Source: Escherichia phage vB_EcoM_10C2_SA_NWU. From it: DNA of 64,000 nucleotides. Each line of letters begins with the position of its first letter. Positions within the stretch are counted from its first letter, which is position 1. A program made the translations under genes and the position numbers. The notes below the pieces were generated by a model. The model had not been told where the DNA came from, searched no databases, and worked only from the letters and a program-made list of their open reading frames with translations. Of the stretch, positions 49 to 59,772 are shown piece after piece. The DNA is taken from the sequence record OR062525; one strand, 5' to 3'.

Positions 49-1188
49 TTGAGTAGAGAATATCCACTTATTGAATCTGTAGATTGTCTTGCTGATCTTC
101 TCGAACCTGACGCTATAGTTTATTATGACTTCGACCAGGTTGCATATCAAGCTGCGGCAAGTTGTGAAAAAAGGACAATTGAGGTAACACACAAAGCCTC
201 CGGACGCAAGAAGATGTTTAAAACACGAACAGAGTTCTGGGGGCGGCAGAAGAACACCGTTGGTGGTTGGTTAAAAGCTGAGAATACCAACCGTGAAGCC
301 GCATGTAAAAAGGCTGGAAAGGAGTTTATTCCGTGGACACGCGAAGATTTCGATGTCTTGGATATCCAAACCCCTGATCCTGTAGAGAACTGCTTACACA
401 CAATTAAGTGTAAAGCTAATGCAGTTCTTAACTATCTAGGTATTCCGGAAGAGCGATGTGTCGGGGTGTTGGGAGGCACAGGTAACTTCAGACTAGATCT
501 TCCAATGCCGGAAAGATACAAAGCCAACCGTAACAATACTCTTCGACCACTGCTGCTTGGAGATGCAAGACAGTATCTACAAAAGCAGTATAATGCTCAA
601 GTGATCAACGGTATCGAGGCTGACGACTGGTTAGCTATCCAGCAATTTGAAGGTTGGAACCACTACCAAAAAACAGGTAAGTTCAACAAGTTTATTATCT
701 CTATTGATAAGGACCAAAGAACACTACCGGGGCTTGTGTTCGATCCCATGCGAAACGATAAGGGAGATTTTGTAAGGGAAACCCCTATGCTGATCGATAA
801 CGGTATGGGGAACATCTTCATGAAGCCCAATGGAGAGGTTGGTGGTTACGGAATGCTGTTCTTCGGATACCAAATGCTGTGTGGTGACTCTGCTGACAAT
901 ATCAAGCCGTATCAAGGACTTATCGGTAAGGGTAAGTTCGGGGATGCCTCAGCATTCTACCTACTGTCTCAGTGCAGCACTCCAAAGGAGATGTGGGTGG
1001 CTATTATTGATCAGTACAAGAAGTGGTTCCCGAAAGGTGTTGTTAAGTATACTGACTTCAATGGTGTTGATCGTAGAATTTCCGTAGGTCAATGGATGAG
1101 TATAATTTTTGACTGTTTGTATATGAAGCGAACATTCAATGATCAAACAAAACTTGTTAACGTTCTTAGAAATGTTGGAGCAATTTGA
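49..1188 (+). CDS. 5'-3' exonuclease / flap endonuclease (FEN, RNase H-like)
   Basis: GIEADDWLA acidic motif (cf. GYEADD of T4 RNase H / T5 D15 / Pol I 5' nuclease) and H3TH-like GDSADNIKPYQGLIGKGKFG; TTG start after GGAGGGG. Confidence 0.7.
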   Translation: MSREYPLIESVDCLADLLEPDAIVYYDFDQVAYQAAASCEKRTIEVTHKASGRKKMFKTRTEFWGRQKNTVGGWLKAENTNREAACKKAGKEFIPWTREDFDVLDIQTPDPVENCLHTIKCKANAVLNYLGIPEERCVGVLGGTGNFRLDLPMPERYKANRNNTLRPLLLGDARQYLQKQYNAQVINGIEADDWLAIQQFEGWNHYQKTGKFNKFIISIDKDQRTLPGLVFDPMRNDKGDFVRETPMLIDNGMGNIFMKPNGEVGGYGMLFFGYQMLCGDSADNIKPYQGLIGKGKFGDASAFYLLSQCSTPKEMWVAIIDQYKKWFPKGVVKYTDFNGVDRRISVGQWMSIIFDCLYMKRTFNDQTKLVNVLRNVGAI

Positions 1189-1520
1189 TGACTAAAAATT
1201 CTGTAGATAATGCAATTATGGAAGCTGTTTTTGAGGATGATCATACAACAGGGACCATTAAAACAAAAAATACATTTATTGTTGCCACAGGTATGTGGCG
1301 GTTGTACGAAGATGACACCATTTCATACATCCTGTACACGGATGATTACGCAGATGACCGTGTATGGTCTGCTGTTTTAAAAGAGGATTGTGAGCTGATT
1401 GAGGGCGAGCGGTTATGCATGTTCACCAGTGTGGAAACAGATGTTAAGCTTTGCTCTCTCGTCCTGTTCAAAGATAAGGCTTATGCTCCTGATGAAGGAG
1501 AGGAGGATGAGGAAGCATGA
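1185..1520 (+). CDS. hypothetical protein, acidic C-terminus
   Basis: ORF overlapping neighbours by 4 nt; no motif recognised. Confidence 0.4.
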   Translation: MMTKNSVDNAIMEAVFEDDHTTGTIKTKNTFIVATGMWRLYEDDTISYILYTDDYADDRVWSAVLKEDCELIEGERLCMFTSVETDVKLCSLVLFKDKAYAPDEGEEDEEA

Positions 1521-2146
1521 GAGAGCGTCTATTATCCATAGACCAGTCGTTGACACACACAGCTTGCGTTGTATGGGACGATGGAAAGCCTGTTCACAAG
1601 GTTGTGTTACGAACTCAAAGCTCATCTGCAAAAGAGAAGAAACCAGGGACGGTTTCTTTTGCAACAGCTGCTGAGCGTATTGACTGGATCTGCAAACAGG
1701 TCAGATATTATATCCACACGCACGGCGTTGACACCGTGGTTATGGAAGGGCTTTCCTTTGGATCACGCGGGGATGCCACACGTGAACTGGCTGGGTTGTT
1801 TTACGGTCTCGAAGTTATGCTTTGGGATGCTTTAGCTGATTGTGAAAATGACGGCCTGTTTAAGGTTCACACAGTGACACCAACAACTGCCAAAAAGTTT
1901 GCTCGTAGTCATCTTCCTGAAGAACTTGCTTTTGAGGAGAAGAAAAAGCTTGACAAAAAGACAGGTAAAGAGCATACTGTGAAGAAACCTGTTACGATGG
2001 ATAAAAAGTTGATGGTTAAGGCCTGCGAAGTATCTGAACCTGGGTTCCTAGACGGGATCAATTTGGTACAAGGTAAGGCCGATCTCGCAGATGCTTATTG
2101 GATAGGTAGGGCGCATCTGGAGGGATTATCGCAAAGCGTAAAATAA
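1517..2146 (+). CDS. RuvC-like Holliday junction resolvase (putative)
   Basis: N-terminal LSIDQSLTHTACVVWD, VVMEGLSFGS acidic motif, C-terminal ADLADAYWIGRAH resemble the RuvC fold catalytic pattern. Confidence 0.45.
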   Translation: MRERLLSIDQSLTHTACVVWDDGKPVHKVVLRTQSSSAKEKKPGTVSFATAAERIDWICKQVRYYIHTHGVDTVVMEGLSFGSRGDATRELAGLFYGLEVMLWDALADCENDGLFKVHTVTPTTAKKFARSHLPEELAFEEKKKLDKKTGKEHTVKKPVTMDKKLMVKACEVSEPGFLDGINLVQGKADLADAYWIGRAHLEGLSQSVK

Positions 2147-2223
2147 GAAAGAAAGCTGTCAAAGCACCCGTTCATAACGGGTGGCTAAAAGATTCTAAGG
2201 ACATAGCCAACTTTCGAAAAGAA

Positions 2224-2703
2224 TTGTCAGAGGAGCAGGATGGTCTTGATCCGATCTTGTGCGAGCCACTTCGTAAGCCTTGTTTAGATCATGATCATCT
2301 GACTGGTCGTTGCAGGGGTGTTTTGTCTCAGTGCACTAATACCTTTGAGGGGTATGTGCTTAAATACTGGATGAAATACTGTAACGAGTATACAGATTGC
2401 AGTTTATCAGAGGCGTTGCGCCGGATGGCTGACTATTTGGAGAAAGACTACAGCGACTTCCCGCTCCACAAAAACTACAGAGATGATATGACAAAGTTCT
2501 TGAGGAGATGCTCTAAAGCTACGATCATTGCACGAGCAGAATCAGATCTCAATCTTGTCATTAATCCAGAGTGCACCAAGCATGAGGCTATTGAGCTCTA
2601 CATGCAGGAGTTTATAAAGAAAACTGAGGAGAGAGATTTCTATGGGGATGAAAAAGGTATTCAATCCTTGCGACTCAGTCCTGATCAGGATGAAATACCG
2701 TAA
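2224..2703 (+). CDS. endonuclease VII-like (T4 gp49 family) recombination endonuclease
   Basis: CLDHDHLTGRCRGVLSQCTN matches the Endo VII DHDH-x-TG-x-x-RG zinc/His-Me finger signature. Confidence 0.7.
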   Translation: MSEEQDGLDPILCEPLRKPCLDHDHLTGRCRGVLSQCTNTFEGYVLKYWMKYCNEYTDCSLSEALRRMADYLEKDYSDFPLHKNYRDDMTKFLRRCSKATIIARAESDLNLVINPECTKHEAIELYMQEFIKKTEERDFYGDEKGIQSLRLSPDQDEIP

Positions 2704-2875
2704 CTGGAAAGGTGTTGTTGCAGATCGCTGCGTTACTGAGCCCAATTTATGGTTTGGCTCTACAGAGTATCATAAAGAAGAGCAGTGGTTGATGCGTGCC
2801 TTCGATGTAGACAAGGGCGAATATCGTGACTTCGCTTTAAAAGACATTCTTCAGTTTTACTAAGGAATCTTAACG

Positions 2876-3859
2876 ATGATGACAAAGTTAACTCTTGAGC
2901 AAATTTTAACACTAAAGCAACAAGGATACACTAATAGACAAATTGCTCGTGAATTTTTAGGCCGTGAGTCACGTGAGAGCTGGATCCGACTACAGCTTAA
3001 ACGTGCACAAGAGAATATGTCAGAAATTGTAGGAGAAGCAACGGAGCGCTTCCTTGAAGAGCACAAAGGTGCTAAAGTTTGGGTGTATGATACAGAGACA
3101 TCCCCAACAAACGGCTGGTTCTTTGGGCACTATAAGACCAACATTCAAACCTGTGGTATTGAAGTTATGCCCTATATGCTAACTTTCGCAGGTAAGTGGT
3201 TAGACAGCCCTAGTGTGGTTGATTGCGCTCTTCCAGATTACAAAATGTGGGATGAGGATATTCACAATGATCTCGAATTGATTCAGGATTTGTGGTATTA
3301 TCTGGATAAATGCGATGTCGCAGTAGCCCACAATTCAGGTTTTGACTGCGGGTGGGCCAACCAACGATTTGCATTTCACGGGTTGCCTCCAACAAGCCCC
3401 TACAAAGATGTTGACACCCTTAAAATGATCAAAAAGGCATTTCGTTTGAATGCAAACACTTTAGAGTATGCATGCAAATACTTCCAACTGGCCCGACAGA
3501 AACTGATTGATCACACATTTGAAATGTGGATCAAGTGTGTCCATGGTGATCTTGAGGCATTTAAACAGATGCGGGAGTATAATGTTGGTGATATCCTGTC
3601 TCTGGAAGGACTGTATTTGCTGGCTCGCCCGTTTGCTAAGCAGCACCCAAACATGTCATTGTACTACCAGGACGAGGAGCCAAAGGTTCGTTGCCCACGC
3701 TGTGGTGGAGAACACCTTCACGAGGAAGAAGCTTTGGCATATACTCAGCTGAGTGCATTTAAAACATACCGCTGTGAAGGTTGTGGATCTGTTGTTCGTG
3801 ATCGTAACAACATCCGTACCCGAGAAGAGATGAAAAACACCCTGATTCAGATAATCTAA
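2876..3859 (+). CDS. DEDD-type 3'-5' exonuclease with C-terminal zinc ribbon
   Basis: Exo I VWVYDTETS, Exo II VAVAHNSGFDCGW, Exo III YNVGD; C-terminal CPRCGG...CEGCG. Confidence 0.5.
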   Translation: MMTKLTLEQILTLKQQGYTNRQIAREFLGRESRESWIRLQLKRAQENMSEIVGEATERFLEEHKGAKVWVYDTETSPTNGWFFGHYKTNIQTCGIEVMPYMLTFAGKWLDSPSVVDCALPDYKMWDEDIHNDLELIQDLWYYLDKCDVAVAHNSGFDCGWANQRFAFHGLPPTSPYKDVDTLKMIKKAFRLNANTLEYACKYFQLARQKLIDHTFEMWIKCVHGDLEAFKQMREYNVGDILSLEGLYLLARPFAKQHPNMSLYYQDEEPKVRCPRCGGEHLHEEEALAYTQLSAFKTYRCEGCGSVVRDRNNIRTREEMKNTLIQII

Positions 3860-48735: not shown

Positions 48736-48763
48736 AAAAATGCCCTACCCTTTCGGGCAGGGC
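48736..48763 (-). terminator. rho-independent terminator
   Basis: GCCCTGCCC-GAAA-GGGTAGGGC hairpin followed by TTTTT on - strand. Confidence 0.55.
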
Positions 48764-48778
48764 TATGTTAGTTAGGTG

Positions 48779-49402
48779 CTAAAAGTATTCATAGAGGTAT
48801 CCATCTGGGGCTGGAATTTTTTCATGAATGTAGTAATCAACACATATTCCGGTTTCTCTTCTACAAGAATTGTGGGATACCCATTCTTTAAGAACGTTTC
48901 CATTCATGTCCAGCCTCCTTACATTTTTACACCGTCTACCGCTGGTGCTTCTATGCAACAGAATATCCTCTGTCTGCTTGTCTTTATTTTCTCCCCAAGT
49001 CGTTAAACGGATATTATCAAAAGAGTACCCTTTGAAATCATCTATCCTGTCACAAGAAGGCTTTTTCCTTTTGTCGTACCCGCTGGCTACCCACTGATCA
49101 TACAACTCTTTGTAACCGTTTAGGTATAGCCACTCCTTAAACTCTTTTTTGGTGTAAGTCGGAGGCTGGTGACCTCTTTGCTTGCTGTTGCACTTTTGAG
49201 TCTTGTACAGCACGCGTATTACACCTTTTTCTGAAGAGTCGTTGGAAAATTGGTCAGCCTCTCTGCTGGCCTTCTTACAACACTCTTTGCACTTATTAAG
49301 ATGACCGTCAGACATCTTTGGGTGTTTGTAGAACTCGGAGAGGTCTCTCACCTCTCCGCACTTGATGCACCTCTTACAATGCGTGGATTCTACTTTTGCC
49401 AT
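48779..49402 (-). CDS. Cys-rich zinc-finger protein, possible freestanding HNH-type endonuclease
   Basis: N-terminal HCKRCIKCGEV...DGHLNKCKECC; start overlaps 3' end of SSB-like gene; own terminator; family not resolved. Confidence 0.3.
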   Translation of the reverse strand: MAKVESTHCKRCIKCGEVRDLSEFYKHPKMSDGHLNKCKECCKKASREADQFSNDSSEKGVIRVLYKTQKCNSKQRGHQPPTYTKKEFKEWLYLNGYKELYDQWVASGYDKRKKPSCDRIDDFKGYSFDNIRLTTWGENKDKQTEDILLHRSTSGRRCKNVRRLDMNGNVLKEWVSHNSCRRETGICVDYYIHEKIPAPDGYLYEYF

Positions 49403-50645
49403 ATTGCAAACCTACCGGAGCGAAAGGTATGTCATCACAGAAGTCATACTGCGCCGGATTCTGATCCATCGGGTCGTCTTCCCCATCATTTACAGGAGGA
49501 GCGTCTACAGTGTTTTGCTGTGGAGCTGCTTCCTGTTTGGCAGCCTGAGGTTCTTGATGGTCAGTTGACCCAGCACCGTTCTTGATCCAATCGTACAACG
49601 GCTCAGCCAGATTAGTCAAGACATCTTTTGCTTCTGCAGTAATTGCCGCTGCAAAATCATCAACTTTCGTTTTCTTGTCAATACGGCGACAAGCGTTCAA
49701 CACCGCATTACCGACACTGGCACCTACTTCATCTTCAGTTCGGTTGGTGGCTTGAGCATACTCTTTCTTAAGCTCGATGGTGACTACGTGCAGTGTTTTA
49801 GCCACGCCTAGTGGGTCGTCTACCTTAAACCCACGATCCAGGATGATCTGCAACGCATTGATGCTATGCCCCGTCTCCACACCAATAGGGTCGTAAGAGG
49901 ATTTACGCTTGCCACCAGGGCCTTGAGTGCCGTTCTCTGCCTTAGGTGGGTAGGCTTTGAAACCACTGATAATGTTTCCGGTGTCTTTGTCCACAATGGC
50001 TGCAACACGACCACCTACCACCAGGTCTTTAAGCTGCTCATCAGTTACAACCATAGCACCTTCGCCAATCTTGTGGTCATTTACAGTAACCACGTTGCCA
50101 ACAATCTGAGTCACATCACCATAGATGCGTAAAACGTCCTGATTGGCATTCTGCTGAGGTTTCTGCTTCTGGCCTTGTGATTGTGCACCTTGTTGCTGTT
50201 TTTGCTGCTGAGTCGCTGCTGGAGCCTCTCCTGCGCCCAGCTTAACCATCTTAGCCAGTGAGCCTTTGTAATAGGTCTTACCGTTATGCTCGTTTGCCTT
50301 CAAAGGGATATTTACGATCCATCCTGGCGTTACGGTTTCCCACTTGTCATCAATTTTAACAGAGACAGAGTCTTGATGACCCGGTTTAAGCAGCTTATCG
50401 CCCATACTGATCCAAACTTCTTCACCACCTTGAAGTAGGTTATCAGAGGAATCCAGTTCAGAAATCAGTAAAGAGATGGTGTGGCTGGACTCAATTTTCT
50501 TACCTTGCCACACAGTGGTTTTAATACCTGTTGTAGGATCAGCACCTTTGATAGGCTTGATGCTGACGCGTTTAATCATGCCGTGAGCCAGTAAAACAGT
50601 TTCACGCGGATTCATCGGGTTAGCGAATTGTTGAATAACGCTCAT
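49374..50645 (-). CDS. single-stranded DNA-binding protein-like with acidic DDIPF tip motif
   Basis: Gln-rich linkers and near-C-terminal YDFCDDIPF resembling what I recall as the bacterial SSB tip (MDFDDDIPF); adjacent to replication genes. Confidence 0.45.
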   Translation of the reverse strand: MSVIQQFANPMNPRETVLLAHGMIKRVSIKPIKGADPTTGIKTTVWQGKKIESSHTISLLISELDSSDNLLQGGEEVWISMGDKLLKPGHQDSVSVKIDDKWETVTPGWIVNIPLKANEHNGKTYYKGSLAKMVKLGAGEAPAATQQQKQQQGAQSQGQKQKPQQNANQDVLRIYGDVTQIVGNVVTVNDHKIGEGAMVVTDEQLKDLVVGGRVAAIVDKDTGNIISGFKAYPPKAENGTQGPGGKRKSSYDPIGVETGHSINALQIILDRGFKVDDPLGVAKTLHVVTIELKKEYAQATNRTEDEVGASVGNAVLNACRRIDKKTKVDDFAAAITAEAKDVLTNLAEPLYDWIKNGAGSTDHQEPQAAKQEAAPQQNTVDAPPVNDGEDDPMDQNPAQYDFCDDIPFAPVGLQYGKSRIHAL

Positions 50646-51010
50646 TCTTTGTCTCCTTGTTCTTCGTTAGTGTTTGCCGTGTGTGCAAACCCTGCTTGAA
50701 TTAATTTGTCCTGAACTTGAGCCAACAGGCCCATTGCAAAACTTGTGGTCCCAGAGAGGGCCATCAGCATATCTCGTTGTTGAGCTACCCAACCTAAGGC
50801 ATAGTCCAAACGACGATATTTTTCTTCTTCACGCAGAGCCTGGAATAATTGTTCAGCCTCTGGCTGTTGTGTAAGCTCCTGAAGTCTTCCCATGAAAGAA
50901 GAAAGCACTAGCAGAAGAGACACTTGATCTTTACTTAACCCTAAGAAAAATTCTTGAGGTTGTTCTTGCTCGTTCATCGCAACCGACGCTTGATCGTTCA
51001 TTTGTTCCAT
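50642..51010 (-). CDS. hypothetical acidic protein
   Basis: ATGA-coupled to SSB-like gene. Confidence 0.4.
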   Translation of the reverse strand: MEQMNDQASVAMNEQEQPQEFFLGLSKDQVSLLLVLSSFMGRLQELTQQPEAEQLFQALREEEKYRRLDYALGWVAQQRDMLMALSGTTSFAMGLLAQVQDKLIQAGFAHTANTNEEQGDKE

Positions 51011-56939: not shown

Positions 56940-59018
56940 TTAAAAAGGCGTTTCATCATCCTCAAAACCAGGGACTGGGTCAGAGGATGGATCATCATAC
57001 GGAAGGTCTTCTTGTGTGTCAACAGGCTTAACAGTAGGAGTTACAACCTTATCAGCCACAACCTTGCCCATAGGTGTTTCTACAACTGCATGCTCCTGAT
57101 CCTCAAACATAGCCTGAGGTCTCCAAACAACCTCCCCACCTTCTCCATCTGTAAACATTTGCATTTCTTTGTCCCAGTACCAATTACTGGCATCATGAAA
57201 CTTACCTGTATGTGGGTCCATAACCAAAGTGTCTGCAATACCCAATGTTTTTGCTGGACGGTTTTTAAGACCTACTAAACGGACACGCCCACGAGAACGA
57301 TCCACCATTTCTTCGGCCTCGACACCTATGACTACCCAACTCAACTGTTCAAGCCCAGCCGATCCTCGCAAATTCTCTTTTCGCACAGGATACCAGAAAG
57401 GTAACGGGTTACCATCCTTGTCTTTAGGAGGCACAATCTCTGTACGTTTGAGGTGAGCGATCACCAAGATAAACACGTTAAACTGCTTACAAAACGCAGC
57501 CAGTTGGGTCATAGCCATGTCCAGCTCTTTTCGCTCATCCTTAACATTAAGCCCCGAAATTACCATGGACAAGTGATCCAGCACAATATAACGACAATGG
57601 TACAGGCAAACCATTTGCTTAAGCTTGGTAATCAACTCGTCCACCGGAATAGACCCGAAATGTTTGAACACTTTGATTTTTCCAGCTTTTGCCCATGATT
57701 GGTGAATCTCTGCGTGTTCTTGATCAGTTAAAAACTGGCTAGGATCTTCAACAAACTCTTTAACATCAAACCCTAACTGGTTTGCATACAAGGAGTTAAT
57801 TGCTTCCTCTGGGTCCTCCTCAAGATGAATCATGCATAGACGATCATCCTCTTCGTAATCATCAGCTTTTGGACATGTCGGGTCCATTAGGTATCTTGCA
57901 ATACAGTGTTCCAGTTTTTTAGCTACAGTTGTTTTACCGCCTCCTGATGGACCTGTAAGCATTACGAGTGTCCCTTTGTGCAAGCCTTTTAGCATTTTTT
58001 GCAGTTTTGGGAACTCTGCGCTGATATCTACCCCGTTGGAAGTCTTTTTCCGCAAAGACTCGATAGAGAAGTCTTCTAAATCCGACACAGCATCAGGCAC
58101 ATATTTAACAGGGTGCCGGAACATGTTGACAATATCTTCCAGCTTTTTAGCCTTCAGCATGTCACGGATATCTTTTACCCCGTCAGGGTCATTTACTTCA
58201 CCAGGGTATTCTACGTGGTAAACGTTATCAGCCATCAAAAATGCTGCGATATTGTGCGTGGCCTCAACACCTTTAATGACGTGTTTTTGCTTCTCTACCT
58301 CGTTAGCTGCATCGTTATCCATTGCCAGCACAACTGTTCCATAGCTACGGATAAACTTCTCATTGTTTGCAAAAGTATCTACTGCGTTTGCACATCCACA
58401 GTTAATTCCAACAAAAGGCAGGCAGGGTTTTCCTGCCAGATCACCACCGTTGATAACTGCGTCGATCCCGTCCTGGACCTCTTTAGCCCACTGCTTCACC
58501 TTTGCCGGGGCTTTAGCGTTGGTGAGAATCCCTTTTACTTGTATCTGATATGCAGCCTGCCATGCTGCAATAACATCACCTTCTCCCTCACAAACGTTAA
58601 TCTGCTTACGGTTGTTGGAAGATGCACACAGCTTTTGACCAAACATCTGGGAGTTGGCCTTTACGATGCCAACAACGGAGAAGTGGCCCCTTTGTTCTTT
58701 AGGAATAGTCCAGTCACGCTTTTTGAAACCGGACAGATTTCCGTAGCGGTCGTAATATGGGAAATATGTTGCAGTGACTGTCACACCGTCTTCTTGTGAC
58801 AATGCTGATCGCACACCAAAATATTGTGCAGCCATCAGACCGATATTTTGTTGTGGGACAGGGACAATTTTAGTATTTTCTAAAACAGTCTCTACAGTTT
58901 CAACCTCTTTTTCATCACGATAGTCTCGTTTCACACTTCCCCCACTTTTATACTTAGTTGCTTTCGGGTTTGGCTCACCGAAACGGTTGTATGCAGATGC
59001 CATAAATTTACTTCCCAT
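56940..59018 (-). CDS. primase-helicase (TOPRIM primase fused to DnaB/gp4-like helicase)
   Basis: TOPRIM motifs CEGEGDVIAA and LAMDNDAANE; Walker A MLTGPSGGGKTT; Walker B IVLDHLSMV; AAGGAG RBS. Confidence 0.7.
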   Translation of the reverse strand: MGSKFMASAYNRFGEPNPKATKYKSGGSVKRDYRDEKEVETVETVLENTKIVPVPQQNIGLMAAQYFGVRSALSQEDGVTVTATYFPYYDRYGNLSGFKKRDWTIPKEQRGHFSVVGIVKANSQMFGQKLCASSNNRKQINVCEGEGDVIAAWQAAYQIQVKGILTNAKAPAKVKQWAKEVQDGIDAVINGGDLAGKPCLPFVGINCGCANAVDTFANNEKFIRSYGTVVLAMDNDAANEVEKQKHVIKGVEATHNIAAFLMADNVYHVEYPGEVNDPDGVKDIRDMLKAKKLEDIVNMFRHPVKYVPDAVSDLEDFSIESLRKKTSNGVDISAEFPKLQKMLKGLHKGTLVMLTGPSGGGKTTVAKKLEHCIARYLMDPTCPKADDYEEDDRLCMIHLEEDPEEAINSLYANQLGFDVKEFVEDPSQFLTDQEHAEIHQSWAKAGKIKVFKHFGSIPVDELITKLKQMVCLYHCRYIVLDHLSMVISGLNVKDERKELDMAMTQLAAFCKQFNVFILVIAHLKRTEIVPPKDKDGNPLPFWYPVRKENLRGSAGLEQLSWVVIGVEAEEMVDRSRGRVRLVGLKNRPAKTLGIADTLVMDPHTGKFHDASNWYWDKEMQMFTDGEGGEVVWRPQAMFEDQEHAVVETPMGKVVADKVVTPTVKPVDTQEDLPYDDPSSDPVPGFEDDETPF

Positions 59019-59772
59019 TAATTCTGCTCCTTACTACAGGCTCGTTTGCTAAGAATACGGCTTTTGCCCAGCCACGTGGCGTGAGGCTTCGGATCATCTT
59101 CGTTCTTGCACTCTTTCCACCCAGCTTGGCGTGTTGCATGGAATACCCGCTAACCGCGTCAACTATTTGCGGGACAGGTTTTGTGGCCGGGATTATAAAT
59201 CCATTGCCTATCCAGCCGCAAGTTATTTTTGGATAGGCATCACGTGGAGCTATAAATTCAGGAAACCAGGGGTTTACATCATCCTCCGGTAAATACCCAC
59301 CATAATCCGAAGGATGAAAACGGTAATCAGGTTTTCGCCACAGTGTGGACATAACCCCTACAGGATTCTCTACATGCCACGGGCAATCGTAAATCTCTCC
59401 CAACTCTTCCGCAACCCGAGCATCCTTTACAGCATTAATTTGGATCAAAGGATCCTTAGCCAGCTTTTTCTTAAAATGTGCAGCACCTGATACCGCTAAA
59501 TGCGTGCACGGAGGAAATGCAAGAATAAAGTCTGGAGCTGGATACATGCAAAAAGTTTCCTGAGGGAACCATGGGTCAATCCAATAATCCACATAGTGAA
59601 TGTTAGGATGATCGGTTATCACCTCTGCATAACTGCCGTGGTCAGCACCTTCTGCATTAAAGCACAGGCACAGGTACCCAGCTTTTGCCCAGTCAATAAC
59701 TGCACCACCAGACCCGTCAAATAGACTCCACACAACACCTTTGTGGTAGTGTTCTTTGTAGATGAATTTCAA
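59008..59772 (-). CDS. DNA (cytosine-5)-methyltransferase-like protein (small)
   Basis: motif I FDGSGG, motif IV-like FPPCT, motif VI VENPVG; start moved to in-frame TTG after GGAGA because the track start lies inside the upstream terminator stem. Confidence 0.5.
   Translation of the reverse strand: MKFIYKEHYHKGVVWSLFDGSGGAVIDWAKAGYLCLCFNAEGADHGSYAEVITDHPNIHYVDYWIDPWFPQETFCMYPAPDFILAFPPCTHLAVSGAAHFKKKLAKDPLIQINAVKDARVAEELGEIYDCPWHVENPVGVMSTLWRKPDYRFHPSDYGGYLPEDDVNPWFPEFIAPRDAYPKITCGWIGNGFIIPATKPVPQIVDAVSGYSMQHAKLGGKSARTKMIRSLTPRGWAKAVFLANEPVVRSRINGK

What the first reader, a model, noticed from the sequence alone, without database searches (positions are those of the whole stretch)
48779..50645. 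SSB-like protein whose DDIPF tip is internal, with an overlapping Cys-rich endonuclease-like gene
The 423-aa protein has Gln/Pro-rich linkers and the motif YDFCDDIPF, which resembles what I recall as the C-terminal protein-interaction tip of bacterial SSB, yet the ORF continues 17 codons further. The start of the downstream Cys-rich ORF (48779-49402, own terminator at 48736-48763) lies inside that extension. This could be a freestanding endonuclease inserted at the 3' end of ssb, or an extended SSB variant.
Basis: partly seen in the sequence, partly recalled or inferred. Interest (0 to 1): 0.45.

Follow-up and report, generated by a model that had tools for sequence, protein, structure and literature searches.

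The report
Homing endonuclease caps phage SSB tip
In this rV5-like coliphage a mobile endonuclease gene has landed exactly on the stop codon of the phage's SSB-like replication protein, bringing a 15-residue peptide that buries the normally terminal DDIPF tip; the same peptide is conserved on many other phage SSBs and I found no description of it.

Summary
A 423-aa ORF (49374..50645, minus strand) carries YDFCDDIPF followed by 15 more codons, not 17. A 207-aa Cys-rich ORF (48779..49402) starts 29 nt inside that extension.

The window is an rV5-like Vequintavirus. In the phage genome collection 57 relatives lack the 207-aa gene. In the three aligned, the protein is 408 aa, ends ...DDDIPF*, and is followed directly by the same terminator. 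The extra 640 bp lies between the last sense codon and the stop. It is present in this form in 26 genomes and in a second form, with the tip left terminal, in 18. Decayed and deleted copies also exist. This is a free-standing homing endonuclease gene.

The endonuclease is PacI-like: a His-less, Tyr-type HNH with a Cys4 zinc module and an I-HmuI-like C-terminal domain. It is not T4 endonuclease VII, as several records annotate it.

The 423-aa protein is 99% identical to Bas52_0087, a predicted OB-fold SSB-like protein reported as the trigger of the DRT10 defence system.

The unexpected part is the extension. AP[IV]GLQY plus 7-8 residues is conserved at protein level on distant homologues, on bona fide PF00436 SSBs and on one primase/helicase, mostly without any endonuclease nearby. 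Its function is unknown.

The parts
49374..50645 (-). SSB-like protein gene, 423 aa (phrog_4477; orthologue of Bas52_0087). Predicted layout: beta domain 1-140, OB-type beta domain 169-235, four-helix bundle 253-355, disordered acidic tail 359-423.
49422..49448 (-). Tip-coding segment YDFCDDIPF (residues 400-408). It resembles the E. coli SSB-Ct DFDDDIPF but is internal in this allele.
   Evidence: P407 and F408 are invariant in alignment A2. The three aligned endonuclease-less alleles end ...FDDDIPF*.
49377..49421 (-). 15-codon post-tip extension APVGLQYGKSRIHAL, a member of a conserved AP[IV]GLQY+7-8 C-terminal peptide class. The stop codon is at 49374..49376.
   Evidence: Absent from the endonuclease-less alleles aligned. 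Present in distant homologues, in 38 IMG/VR loci and in PF00436 SSBs. Synonymous codon variation with amino-acid conservation.
48782..49421 (-). 640-bp segment missing from endonuclease-less rV5-like phages. It comprises the extension plus the endonuclease gene up to its stop.
   Evidence: Alignment A1. The record span is 2071 bp instead of 2711 bp in endonuclease-less phages. Divergence reaches 6 per 30 nt in both immediate flanks against a typical 0-1, occasionally up to 3, over most of the upstream gene.
48779..49402 (-). Free-standing homing endonuclease gene, 207 aa, PacI-type His-less HNH.
   Evidence: phrog_1035 E=4e-40. AF2 pLDDT 90.6. Foldseek and HMM top hits are PacI 3ldy and I-HmuI 1u3e. 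246 homologues.
49280..49369 (-). N-terminal Cys4 zinc module of the endonuclease (C12, C15, C38, C41). This is the module shared with the different HNH endonucleases that sit after tip-ending genes in other phages.
   Evidence: Invariant Cys in A3. Aligns to the PacI N-terminus MTQCPRCQ...CKGC. Shared with the GAP31, PsgM04F and ECOO78 endonucleases.
48986..49063 (-). Active-site motif KPSCDRIDDFKGYSFDNIRLTTWGEN. D118, R119, Y126 and N139 are invariant. Arg occupies the position of the canonical HNH His, as in PacI.
   Evidence: A3 invariant columns. HMM alignment to PacI 'VDRSDSFEGYSPQNARL'. PacI uses a Tyr in place of the His (PMC5714182).
48736..48763 (-). Intrinsic terminator. It was ancestrally the terminator of the SSB-like gene and now follows the endonuclease gene.
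   Evidence: The identical hairpin follows the stop of the 408-aa gene in the three aligned endonuclease-less phages.
50642..51010 (-). Upstream 122-aa gene (phrog_7310). Its stop overlaps the start of the SSB-like gene (ATGA), so both lie in the same operon.

Best explanation
The locus is the 3' end of the Vequintavirus SSB-like gene, invaded by a free-standing homing endonuclease gene (HEG).

The host protein has OB-fold beta domains, a helical bundle and a disordered acidic tail ending in an E. coli SSB-like tip. It is inferred to act as the phage's ssDNA-binding hub in a replisome that also has a primase/helicase related to T7's and a polymerase annotated T7-like.

The HEG encodes a PacI-type nuclease of the His-Me finger superfamily: a Cys4 zinc module, a D-R...Y...N...N active site and an I-HmuI-like DNA-binding tail. 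It sits exactly between the last sense codon and the stop/terminator of the host gene. It has no predicted promoter or terminator of its own. Its ATG lies inside the host reading frame, so it is probably expressed by read-through transcription and coupled or leaky translation.

By analogy with other free-standing phage HEGs, it is inferred to cut HEG-less alleles near the tip-coding sequence during co-infection and to be copied in by recombinational repair, co-converting the flanks.

In this allele (type A) the imported DNA includes 45 nt that add 15 residues after the tip. That peptide belongs to a conserved class (AP[IV]GLQY + 7-8 residues ending hydrophobic) found on many phage SSBs and kept by purifying selection. 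It is therefore most likely a functional post-tip motif that changes which partners the tail binds, since canonical SSB-Ct pockets take the terminal Phe. Its partner is unknown.

Shown: the polymorphism, the insertion boundaries, the nuclease family resemblance and the protein-level conservation of the extension. Inferred: cleavage and homing, the mode of expression, ssDNA binding and the effect of the extension.
For: Identity of the window: 100% identical to an rV5-like phage.

Insertion and polymorphism:
- The 640-bp insert has exact boundaries, and the three aligned HEG-less alleles end DDDIPF* followed by the same terminator.
- Allele counts are 26 type A, 18 type B and 57 HEG-less.
- A type B copy lies 8 nt downstream of a terminal tip.
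- V18 carries a decayed HEG. L116 carries a deleted HEG with both ends still recognisable and the extension retained.
- Flank divergence is 6 per 30 nt on each side against a typical 0-1, occasionally up to 3, over most of the upstream gene.

The nuclease:
- pLDDT 90.6. Best structural and sequence matches are PacI and I-HmuI.
- D118, R119, Y126, N139 and the Cys4 are invariant.
- PacI uses a Tyr in place of the His (PMC5714182).
- PF22083, the I-HmuI NUMOD-like domain, is found in relatives.
- 13 of the 15 closest IMG/VR relatives sit directly after genes ending ..IPF.

The host protein:

The extension:
- Present in 26-43%-identical homologues without a HEG.
- Present on PF00436 SSBs and in cultured Vibrio phages.
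- Codon tables show free synonymous variation with invariant amino acids.
- Downstream genes differ from locus to locus.
Against: No cleavage, homing or expression data exist for this HEG. Foldseek and HMM matches to PacI and I-HmuI are marginal (E about 0.01-0.15) and rest mainly on the motif.

The canonical catalytic His is absent, so activity depends on the PacI-like Tyr mechanism applying here.

The SSB-like protein has no Pfam or NCBIfam hit, and ssDNA binding is untested.

Part of the evidence for conservation of the extension comes from a pattern search that required those residues. The unbiased set is only 11 loci plus about 27 proteins.

L116 shows that an extension can be left behind as a scar after HEG loss, so some HEG-less extended genes could be recent scars.

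Short 1-4 residue post-tip additions next to related HEGs (ECOO78, L060, L064) suggest the tip may tolerate added residues without any function being gained.
Confidence: 0.8

Rival explanations
1. The extension is a functionless by-product. The insertion displaced the stop codon and translation simply runs on to the next stop. Extended genes that lack a HEG are scars of former HEG occupancy, spread horizontally by the element.
For: Within Vequintavirus the extension is seen only on alleles that have, or had, the HEG. L116 keeps the extension after HEG deletion. Related HEGs are accompanied by arbitrary short additions: IPFN*, IPFS*, IPFNEVQ*.
Against: AP[IV]GLQY is as conserved as the IPF tip, while Leu uses 6 codons, Gly 4 and Pro 3-4. 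The length is fixed at 14-16 residues in about 47 distinct variants. It occurs in homologues of 26-43% identity, and on PF00436 SSBs, next to unrelated genes or a terminator. Type B shows the HEG can insert without any extension.
Confidence: 0.15
2. The extended form is a precursor or regulated form. The 15 residues are removed by a protease, or act as a C-terminal degron, so that the mature active protein again ends in DDIPF, or its level is controlled.
For: The extension always ends in hydrophobic residues, and some variants resemble the ssrA-type ...YALA end, for example GKMSLYALA in L042. From general knowledge, a terminal Phe is needed for canonical SSB-Ct binding (PMC3632105).
Against: No protease site or processing data exist. 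Most variants (PALLNCM, GRNFLHCF) do not resemble known degrons. The strongest conservation is in APxGLQY next to the tip, not at the extreme C-terminus.
Confidence: 0.15
3. The 207-aa protein is a domesticated DNA-binding or regulatory protein, or a nuclease working for the phage (a resolvase like endonuclease VII, as annotated), rather than a selfish homing enzyme.
For: Several GenBank records and PHROG label it 'endonuclease VII'. The canonical HNH His is missing. It is intact in 44 genomes.
Against: About half of otherwise near-identical phages lack it entirely, and decayed or deleted copies exist, so it is dispensable. There is no Pfam Endonuclease_7 hit. The best matches are PacI and I-HmuI. 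Relatives are scattered after ssb genes of unrelated phages, which is the pattern of a mobile element.
Confidence: 0.07
4. Assembly or sequencing error: a lost stop codon or a chimeric join created the apparent extension and overlap.
For: None beyond the unusual appearance.
Against: The same junction is found in 26 independently sequenced genomes, including rV5 itself. A 423-aa protein cluster recurs in metagenomes (P0001). The extension is conserved in other genera.
Confidence: 0.01

Closest known systems
Bas52_0087 of Escherichia phage RudolfGeigy, the SSB-like trigger of the DRT10 (UG17) reverse-transcriptase defence (bioRxiv 10.64898/2026.04.29.721553)
   Same: 403 of 408 residues are identical, including D252 and Y351, the sites of the DRT10 escape substitutions. 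Same operon position. Predicted OB folds, disordered tail and FDDDIPF-like tip.
   Different: Bas52_0087 ends at the tip and has no endonuclease gene downstream. The window's protein has FCDDIPF followed by 15 more residues.
E. coli SSB and its C-terminal tip (SSB-Ct, DDDIPF)
   Same: Acidic tail ending in D-D-I-P-F after a Gln/Pro-rich disordered linker. OB-fold DNA-binding domain (predicted).
   Different: No PF00436 signature. The protein has extra domains, including a helical bundle. The tip is not the C-terminus here, whereas partner pockets accommodate the ultimate Phe (PMC3632105).
T7 gp2.5 and gp4 acidic C-terminal tails ending in Phe (general knowledge, not tested here)
   Same: Both the SSB-like protein and the primase/helicase of this phage end in similar acidic ...[DE]-x-P-F tails (window 56940..59030 ends EDDETPF*). 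The helicase part gives tblastn matches of about 33% identity to T7 primase/helicase, and the polymerase in a relative is annotated 'T7-like'.
   Different: The tip sequence copies the host SSB-Ct rather than the T7 type. Binding to the phage polymerase is untested.
[quoted passage not shown]
   Same: N-terminal CxxC...CxxC zinc site. Active-site stretch VDRxDxFxGYSxxNxRL with Arg at the canonical His position and a conserved Tyr. Best Foldseek hit.
   Different: PacI is a 142-aa homodimeric restriction enzyme without the I-HmuI-like C-terminal domain. The window's protein is a phage-borne mobile gene of 207 aa. Similarity is marginal outside the motif.
I-HmuI and other free-standing or intron-borne phage HNH homing endonucleases (also T4 Seg/Mob genes as a model of free-standing HEGs)
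   Same: An HNH-type core followed by a NUMOD-like DNA-binding tail. Intergenic insertion next to a conserved gene, presence/absence polymorphism and divergent flanks.
   Different: The canonical His is replaced. The element overlaps and extends the host reading frame instead of lying in an intron or a clean intergenic gap.
T4 endonuclease VII (the label in GenBank and PHROG)
   Same: Cys-rich N-terminal zinc site. Membership of the His-Me finger superfamily in the broad sense.
   Different: No Pfam Endonuclease_7 match. Structural and sequence neighbours are PacI and I-HmuI. The gene is dispensable and polymorphic.

Membership tests
Bacterial-type SSB (Pfam PF00436) | Sequence signature of the SSB OB domain | tested here: not met
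   No Pfam hit with E<=1 other than an irrelevant one. No NCBIfam hit.
Bacterial-type SSB (Pfam PF00436) | OB-fold nucleic-acid-binding domain | tested here: met
Bacterial-type SSB (Pfam PF00436) | Disordered linker ending in an acidic tip (DDDIPF) at the extreme C-terminus | tested here: not met
   The linker and tip are present, but 15 residues follow the tip in this allele. The tip is terminal in the three aligned HEG-less alleles and in the type B allele examined.
Bacterial-type SSB (Pfam PF00436) | Binds ssDNA | not testable with these tools
   Needs EMSA or fluorescence titration with purified protein.
phrog_4477 / Bas52_0087 family of Vequintavirinae SSB-like proteins | Full-length sequence similarity | tested here: met
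   E=5.7e-173 over profile positions 1-393. 99% identity to Bas52_0087.
Free-standing homing endonuclease gene | Presence/absence polymorphism at one precise site among close relatives | tested here: met
   640-bp insert with exact boundaries. 26 + 18 genomes with it, 57 without.
Free-standing homing endonuclease gene | Signs of the invasion-decay-loss cycle and divergent or co-converted flanks | tested here: met
   Decayed copy in V18, deletion remnant in L116, hybrid HEG-less allele in L112. Flank divergence 6 per 30 nt against a typical 0-1, occasionally up to 3.
Free-standing homing endonuclease gene | Site-specific cleavage of the HEG-less allele and biased inheritance | not testable with these tools
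   Needs in vitro cleavage mapping and mixed-infection crosses.
His-Me finger (HNH) nucleases | beta-beta-alpha-metal fold | tested here: inconclusive
   In the high-confidence model (pLDDT 90.6), the two best PDB matches are the HNH enzymes PacI and I-HmuI (prob 0.99 and 0.96), but E is only about 0.009.
His-Me finger (HNH) nucleases | Catalytic His general base | tested here: not met
   Invariant Arg119 occupies that position, and no His is invariant in the family.
His-Me finger (HNH) nucleases | Metal-ligand Asn in the alpha helix and structural Cys4 zinc site | tested here: met
   N139 is invariant and N130 nearly so. C12, C15, C38 and C41 are invariant.
PacI-like His-Me finger group 20 (Tyr replaces His) | D-R at the His position plus a conserved Tyr in the omega loop (VDRxDxFxGYS) | tested here: met
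   PSCDRIDDFKGYSFDNIRL aligns to PacI GVDRSDSFEGYSPQNARL. Y126 is invariant. The role of the Tyr in PacI is taken from PMC5714182.
T4 endonuclease VII family (as annotated in records) | Endonuclease_7 sequence signature or fold | tested here: not met
   No Pfam match. Endonuclease VII is not among the structural neighbours. The label comes from phrog_1035 only.

The most novel reading that the evidence does not exclude
AP[IV]GLQY + 7-8 residues is a previously undescribed short linear motif that follows the SSB tip in many phages. It converts the terminal DDIPF into an internal one and so re-programmes which host or phage proteins the SSB tail recruits, or hides the tip from host factors and defence sensors such as ExoI/DRT10. 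The motif is portable. It is moved between non-homologous replisome proteins (PF00436 SSBs, the Vequintavirinae SSB-like protein, the GAP31 primase/helicase) by recombination at the conserved tip-coding DNA, in part by a clade of PacI-type homing endonucleases that specialise on the 3' ends of ssb genes.
Probability: 0.35. Interest if true: 0.7.

Novelty: new variant of a known kind. Interest (0 to 1): 0.5.

Why it matters
The SSB C-terminal tip is a central protein-recruitment hub in bacterial DNA metabolism, and its partners are described as gripping the ultimate Phe. A conserved class of phage SSBs in which that tip is capped by a selected 14-16-residue peptide would mean either a second binding mode or a way to switch off or redirect host interactions.

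This is directly testable, because natural near-isogenic phages differ only in this feature. BASEL phages Bas52 (tip terminal), Bas51 (HEG, tip terminal) and DrSchubert/EmilHeitz/MaxBurger (tip capped) are all available. The uncapped orthologue has just been reported as the trigger of the DRT10 defence, with the host exonuclease ExoI as a modulator.

Separately, the endonuclease adds a phage-borne, mobile branch to the small PacI-like His-less HNH group. It also shows a homing-endonuclease clade that targets the most conserved DNA of ssb genes, and it corrects the 'endonuclease VII' annotation carried in dozens of records.

Tried and rejected
- Pfam and NCBIfam scans of both proteins gave nothing useful.
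- I looked for a gene that always accompanies extension-bearing SSBs, by clustering 779 ORFs from 46 loci. No universal neighbour emerged; the best family was present in 15 loci. No partner could be proposed from context.
- I compared the extension by eye with beta-clamp-binding (QL[SD]LF), PIP-box, FtsZ C-terminal peptide and ssrA-tag consensus sequences from memory. None fits across the variants, so none is proposed.
- I checked whether the conservation of the extension could reflect an overlapping downstream gene or a nucleotide signal. This was rejected: downstream genes differ and third codon positions vary freely.
- I considered a fusion or frameshift product of the SSB-like gene and the HEG. 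The HEG frame is closed by a stop 9 nt upstream of its ATG, and I found no evidence for a frameshift.
- Full-text searches for the motif strings (DIPFAP, IPFAPIGL, IPFAPVGL) found no paper. A search for DDDIPF + phage + extension found nothing that describes a post-tip extension. The library lacks most subscription journals, so this is not proof of novelty.
- The DRT10 preprint text gives no per-phage data that would compare capped and uncapped Vequintavirinae.
- A scan of one genome per bacterial species found the motif in only 8 genomes, mostly marine Gammaproteobacteria. It is essentially a phage feature.
Full report
**1. What is there**

On the minus strand, a 423-aa ORF (49374..50645) contains YDFCDDIPF at residues 400-408. 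It continues with APVGLQYGKSRIHAL before the stop.

A 207-aa Cys-rich ORF (48779..49402) starts at an ATG formed by the Q-Y-G codons of that extension, so the two genes overlap by 29 nt. The frame of the 207-aa ORF is closed by a stop just upstream of its ATG.

A hairpin plus T-run lies at 48763..48736. The 122-aa gene upstream overlaps the start of the 423-aa gene (ATGA), so all three genes are read in one direction as an operon.

**2. Where the window comes from, and the polymorphism**

The region is 100% identical to Escherichia phage vB_EcoM_12A_SA_NWU and about 97% identical to rV5 itself. It is therefore a Vequintavirus.

A more sensitive search showed that many relatives match over only 2071 bp instead of 2711 bp. 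I aligned three of them: JLBYU08, EduardKellenberger and FV3. In each, the upstream protein is 408 aa and ends ...YAFDDDIPF*. The stop codon is followed at once by the same terminator that in the window follows the 207-aa gene.

The window therefore carries an extra 640 bp (48782..49421), placed exactly between the Phe408 codon and the stop.

Diagnostic 121-nt junction queries gave these counts in the phage collection:
- 26 records with the window's junction (type A).
- 18 with a second arrangement (type B).
- 57 with the empty site.

In type B (for example WalterGehring/Bas51) a 192-aa version of the endonuclease, with a different 5' end, starts 8 nt after a stop codon that leaves the tip terminal (...EFDDSIPF*). 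V18 has lost the 5' end of that gene.

A metagenomic relative (L116) has deleted the middle of the gene. About 25 nt of each end survive, and so does the extension. Another (L112) has an empty site, but its upstream flank is type-A-like (YDFCDDIPF*).

Against EduardKellenberger, the window typically differs at 0-1 positions per 30 nt, occasionally up to 3, over most of the gene. Divergence rises over the last ~150 nt and reaches 6 per 30 in the 30 nt on each side of the insert.

An exact, dispensable insert, intact, decayed and deleted copies, and divergent flanks together form the classical picture of a free-standing homing endonuclease gene. Cleavage and homing themselves are inferred, not shown.

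**3. The endonuclease**

PHROGs places the protein in phrog_1035, labelled 'endonuclease VII' (E=4e-40). Pfam and NCBIfam find nothing.

A database search found 246 homologues. In an alignment of 39 of them, the invariant residues are C12, C15, C38, C41, D118, R119, Y126 and N139. No histidine is invariant.

The AlphaFold2 model is confident (pLDDT 90.6). Its two best PDB neighbours are the HNH enzymes PacI and I-HmuI (E about 0.009, probabilities 0.99 and 0.96).

A profile search of PDB sequences gives the same two proteins. It aligns PSCDRIDDFKGYSFDNIRL with PacI GVDRSDSFEGYSPQNARL, and the N-terminal CxxC...CxxC with the PacI N-terminus. The C-terminal 90 residues align with the DNA-binding tail of I-HmuI. 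Some relatives reach the Pfam threshold for the I-HmuI NUMOD-like domain.

PacI is the textbook case of a His-Me finger enzyme in which the catalytic His is absent and a loop Tyr takes over (PMC5714182, PMC3384342).

I therefore read the 207-aa protein as a PacI-type, His-less HNH nuclease with a zinc module and an I-HmuI-like tail. The 'endonuclease VII' label is not supported. The statistical support outside the motif is marginal, and activity is untested.

**4. Where its relatives sit**

Among 51 IMG/VR loci that encode relatives, 13 of the 15 closest (at least 44% identity) lie within about 110 nt downstream of a gene whose product ends in an SSB tip...DDQEIPF*...DDETIPF*...DDDVPF*...EDIIPF*. 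None of the roughly 30 more distant relatives do.

A weak nucleotide search with the window's junction also hit unrelated phages. In those phages a different HNH endonuclease, sharing only the N-terminal zinc module, follows a tip-ending gene:
- ECOO78: a PF00436 SSB ending DDDIPFN*.
- PsgM04F: a 317-aa homologue of the window's protein.
- GAP31: the primase/helicase.

The upstream genes belong to different families and the phage genomes range from 37 to 150 kb. This looks like repeated targeting of the tip-coding end of ssb-type genes rather than inherited synteny.

**5. The 423-aa protein**

It matches phrog_4477 (E=5.7e-173), and the profile ends at residue 408, which is the tip.

The AlphaFold2 model shows four regions:
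- A beta domain (1-140).
- A 65-residue beta1-3/helix/beta4-5 domain (169-235).
- A four-helix bundle (253-355).
- A disordered tail (359-423), with a disordered Gln-rich linker at 141-168.

Residues 1-408 are 403/408 identical to Bas52_0087 of phage RudolfGeigy. A 2026 preprint describes that protein as SSB-like, with two OB folds and an FDDDIPF tip. It reports the protein as the phage factor needed to trigger the DRT10 defence, with escape substitutions D252V and Y351C, and with host ExoI (SbcB) as a modulator. Both residues are conserved in the window.

'SSB-like' is thus well supported at the level of prediction and literature. ssDNA binding has not been measured, and the protein is not a PF00436 member.

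The phage's own primase/helicase (window 56940..59030) ends ...EDDETPF*. The C-terminal helicase part of the GAP31 homologue gives tblastn matches of about 33% identity to T7-group primase/helicases, and the neighbouring polymerase in a relative is annotated 'T7-like'. This recalls the matching acidic Phe-ended tails of T7 gp4 and gp2.5, which I cite from general knowledge.

**6. The extension is not an accident**

Homologues of the 423-aa protein at only 26-43% identity also continue past the tip with the same peptide...DFDDDIPFAPVGLQYARHAIYAL...APIGLQYGRNFLHCF...APVGLQYPQLLWVM.

In Serratia phage Kashira, an E. coli phage contig (P0045), P0066 and P0070 there is no endonuclease downstream. 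In Kashira and P0045 a terminator follows the stop directly, and the next gene called is on the opposite strand in Kashira, P0045 and P0066.

A degenerate DNA pattern for DIPF-AP[IV]GLQY found 38 IMG/VR loci and 8 bacterial genomes. Most are ordinary 150-250-aa SSBs, and three tested examples are clear PF00436 members. Others are Pfam-less small proteins of at least two kinds and a 268-aa protein.

The gene downstream varies: a methyltransferase, unrelated ORFs, and only rarely an endonuclease. Cultured Vibrio phages such as Valp1, 1.106.O and BT-1011 carry the extension too, while close relatives stop at the tip.

About 47 distinct extension sequences fall into two classes:
- A 14-residue class, such as APIGLQYPALLNCM.
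- A 15-16-residue class, such as APVGLQYARHAIYAL or GKSRIHAL(S).

Third codon positions vary freely while the amino acids do not. This also holds in an unbiased set of 11 loci that were not found with the pattern: Leu uses six codons, Gly four and Pro three. In that set APxGLQY is as constant as IPF.

In L029 and L033 an unrelated downstream ORF starts at the same ATG as the window's endonuclease (MAKAGSTRY... against MAKVESTH...). The SSB frame is therefore the conserved one.

GAP31's primase/helicase ends DFDNDTPF-APIGLQYANHAIYAL and is followed by an endonuclease, whereas the orthologues in KB57 and rV5-like phages end ...DDDTPF* and ...EDDETPF*.

I conclude that the extension is a translated peptide under purifying selection. 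It is a portable C-terminal module. In Vequintavirus it arrived together with the type A endonuclease gene by recombination in the tip-coding DNA.

Two caveats apply. L116 shows that an extension can outlive its endonuclease. And 1-4-residue additions (IPFN*, IPFS*, IPFNEVQ*) next to related endonucleases do look accidental.

**7. How it most likely works**

Shown: the insertion, its boundaries, its polymorphism, the PacI-like motif, and the conservation of the extension.

Inferred:
- The endonuclease is transcribed from the SSB-like operon. No promoter-like site lies just upstream of its start; the nearest one predicted on this strand is about 190 nt upstream, inside the SSB-like gene, and the number of such sites is no more than chance.
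- It is translated from an ATG with a weak AGG about 8 nt upstream, inside the extension.
- It cuts empty sites near the tip codons.
- It is copied in by repair.

For the extension, the best-supported statement is negative. Canonical SSB-Ct pockets on ExoI, RecQ, RecO, chi and DnaG accommodate the ultimate Phe, and the surrounding basic residues are proposed to bind the acidic residues and/or the terminal carboxyl group (PMC3632105). A tip followed by 15 residues cannot bind in that mode. The peptide therefore probably redirects or masks the tail. Its own hydrophobic end and the F...Y pair suggest a second docking motif.

No partner could be proposed. Neighbourhood clustering found no universal companion gene, and no known short motif I could recall fits.

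**8. Novelty and verdict**

The endonuclease gene is already annotated as a putative homing endonuclease in some records. The SSB-like nature of the host protein is in a 2026 preprint. Those parts are a new member and an already known item, respectively.

Three things appear not to have been described, within the limits of a library that lacks most subscription journals:
- The conserved post-tip peptide. Full-text searches for DIPFAP, IPFAPIGL and IPFAPVGL returned no paper.
- Its occurrence on several non-homologous replisome proteins.
- The specialisation of a PacI-type endonuclease clade on ssb 3' ends.

I rate the finding a new variant of a known kind, with interest 0.5.

Noticed in passing
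window 56940..59030 (-): The phage's 696-aa primase/helicase ends ...GFEDDETPF*. This is an acidic Phe-ended tail resembling the SSB tip, so two replisome proteins of the same phage carry similar tails (compare T7 gp4 and gp2.5).
   Followed up: partly
L004 (Cronobacter phage GAP31) 2594..4651 and 2107..2604: The GAP31 primase/helicase ends DFDNDTPF-APIGLQYANHAIYAL* and is overlapped by 11 nt by an HNH endonuclease that shares only the N-terminal zinc module with the window's enzyme. Orthologues in KB57 and rV5-like phages stop at ...TPF*.
   Followed up: partly
L116 2700..2900; L055 (V18) 780..1325; L112 3600..3750: Three stages of the endonuclease life cycle in relatives. L116 has an internal deletion that leaves both gene ends and the extension. 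V18 has lost the 5' end. L112 is an empty site whose upstream flank is of the invaded type (YDFCDDIPF*), which could be a resistant or ancestral allele.
   Followed up: partly
L006 (ECOO78) 2673..3170; L060; L064: SSBs next to related endonucleases carry short arbitrary additions after the tip (DDDIPFN*, DEIPFS*, EDEIPFNEVQ*). This suggests the terminal position of the Phe is not always kept in phage SSBs.
   Followed up: no
L012, L018, L035, L042 (IMG/VR loci): The tip-plus-extension module also sits on small proteins with no Pfam match (two different 153-156-aa types) and on a 268-aa protein. These may be further ssDNA-binding scaffolds.
   Followed up: no
phage collection records MG065635-MG065690: Sixteen records named 'Campylobacter phage', with host given as Campylobacter jejuni, are about 96-97% identical to E. 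coli rV5-like phages over this locus. The host labels look doubtful.
   Followed up: no
window 50642..51010 (-): The 122-aa protein upstream (phrog_7310, no Pfam) is translationally coupled to the SSB-like gene. One record (JLBYU08) also annotates it as a putative ssDNA-binding protein. No evidence was found here for or against that.
   Followed up: no
L008, L011, L014, L034, L041 and others (15 of 46 extension-bearing loci): A conserved gene family (MF.V.GV.KKKC...) often lies immediately downstream of extension-bearing SSBs in phages of about 45-55 kb. A DNA methyltransferase does so in 11 loci. The function of the first family was not examined.
   Followed up: no
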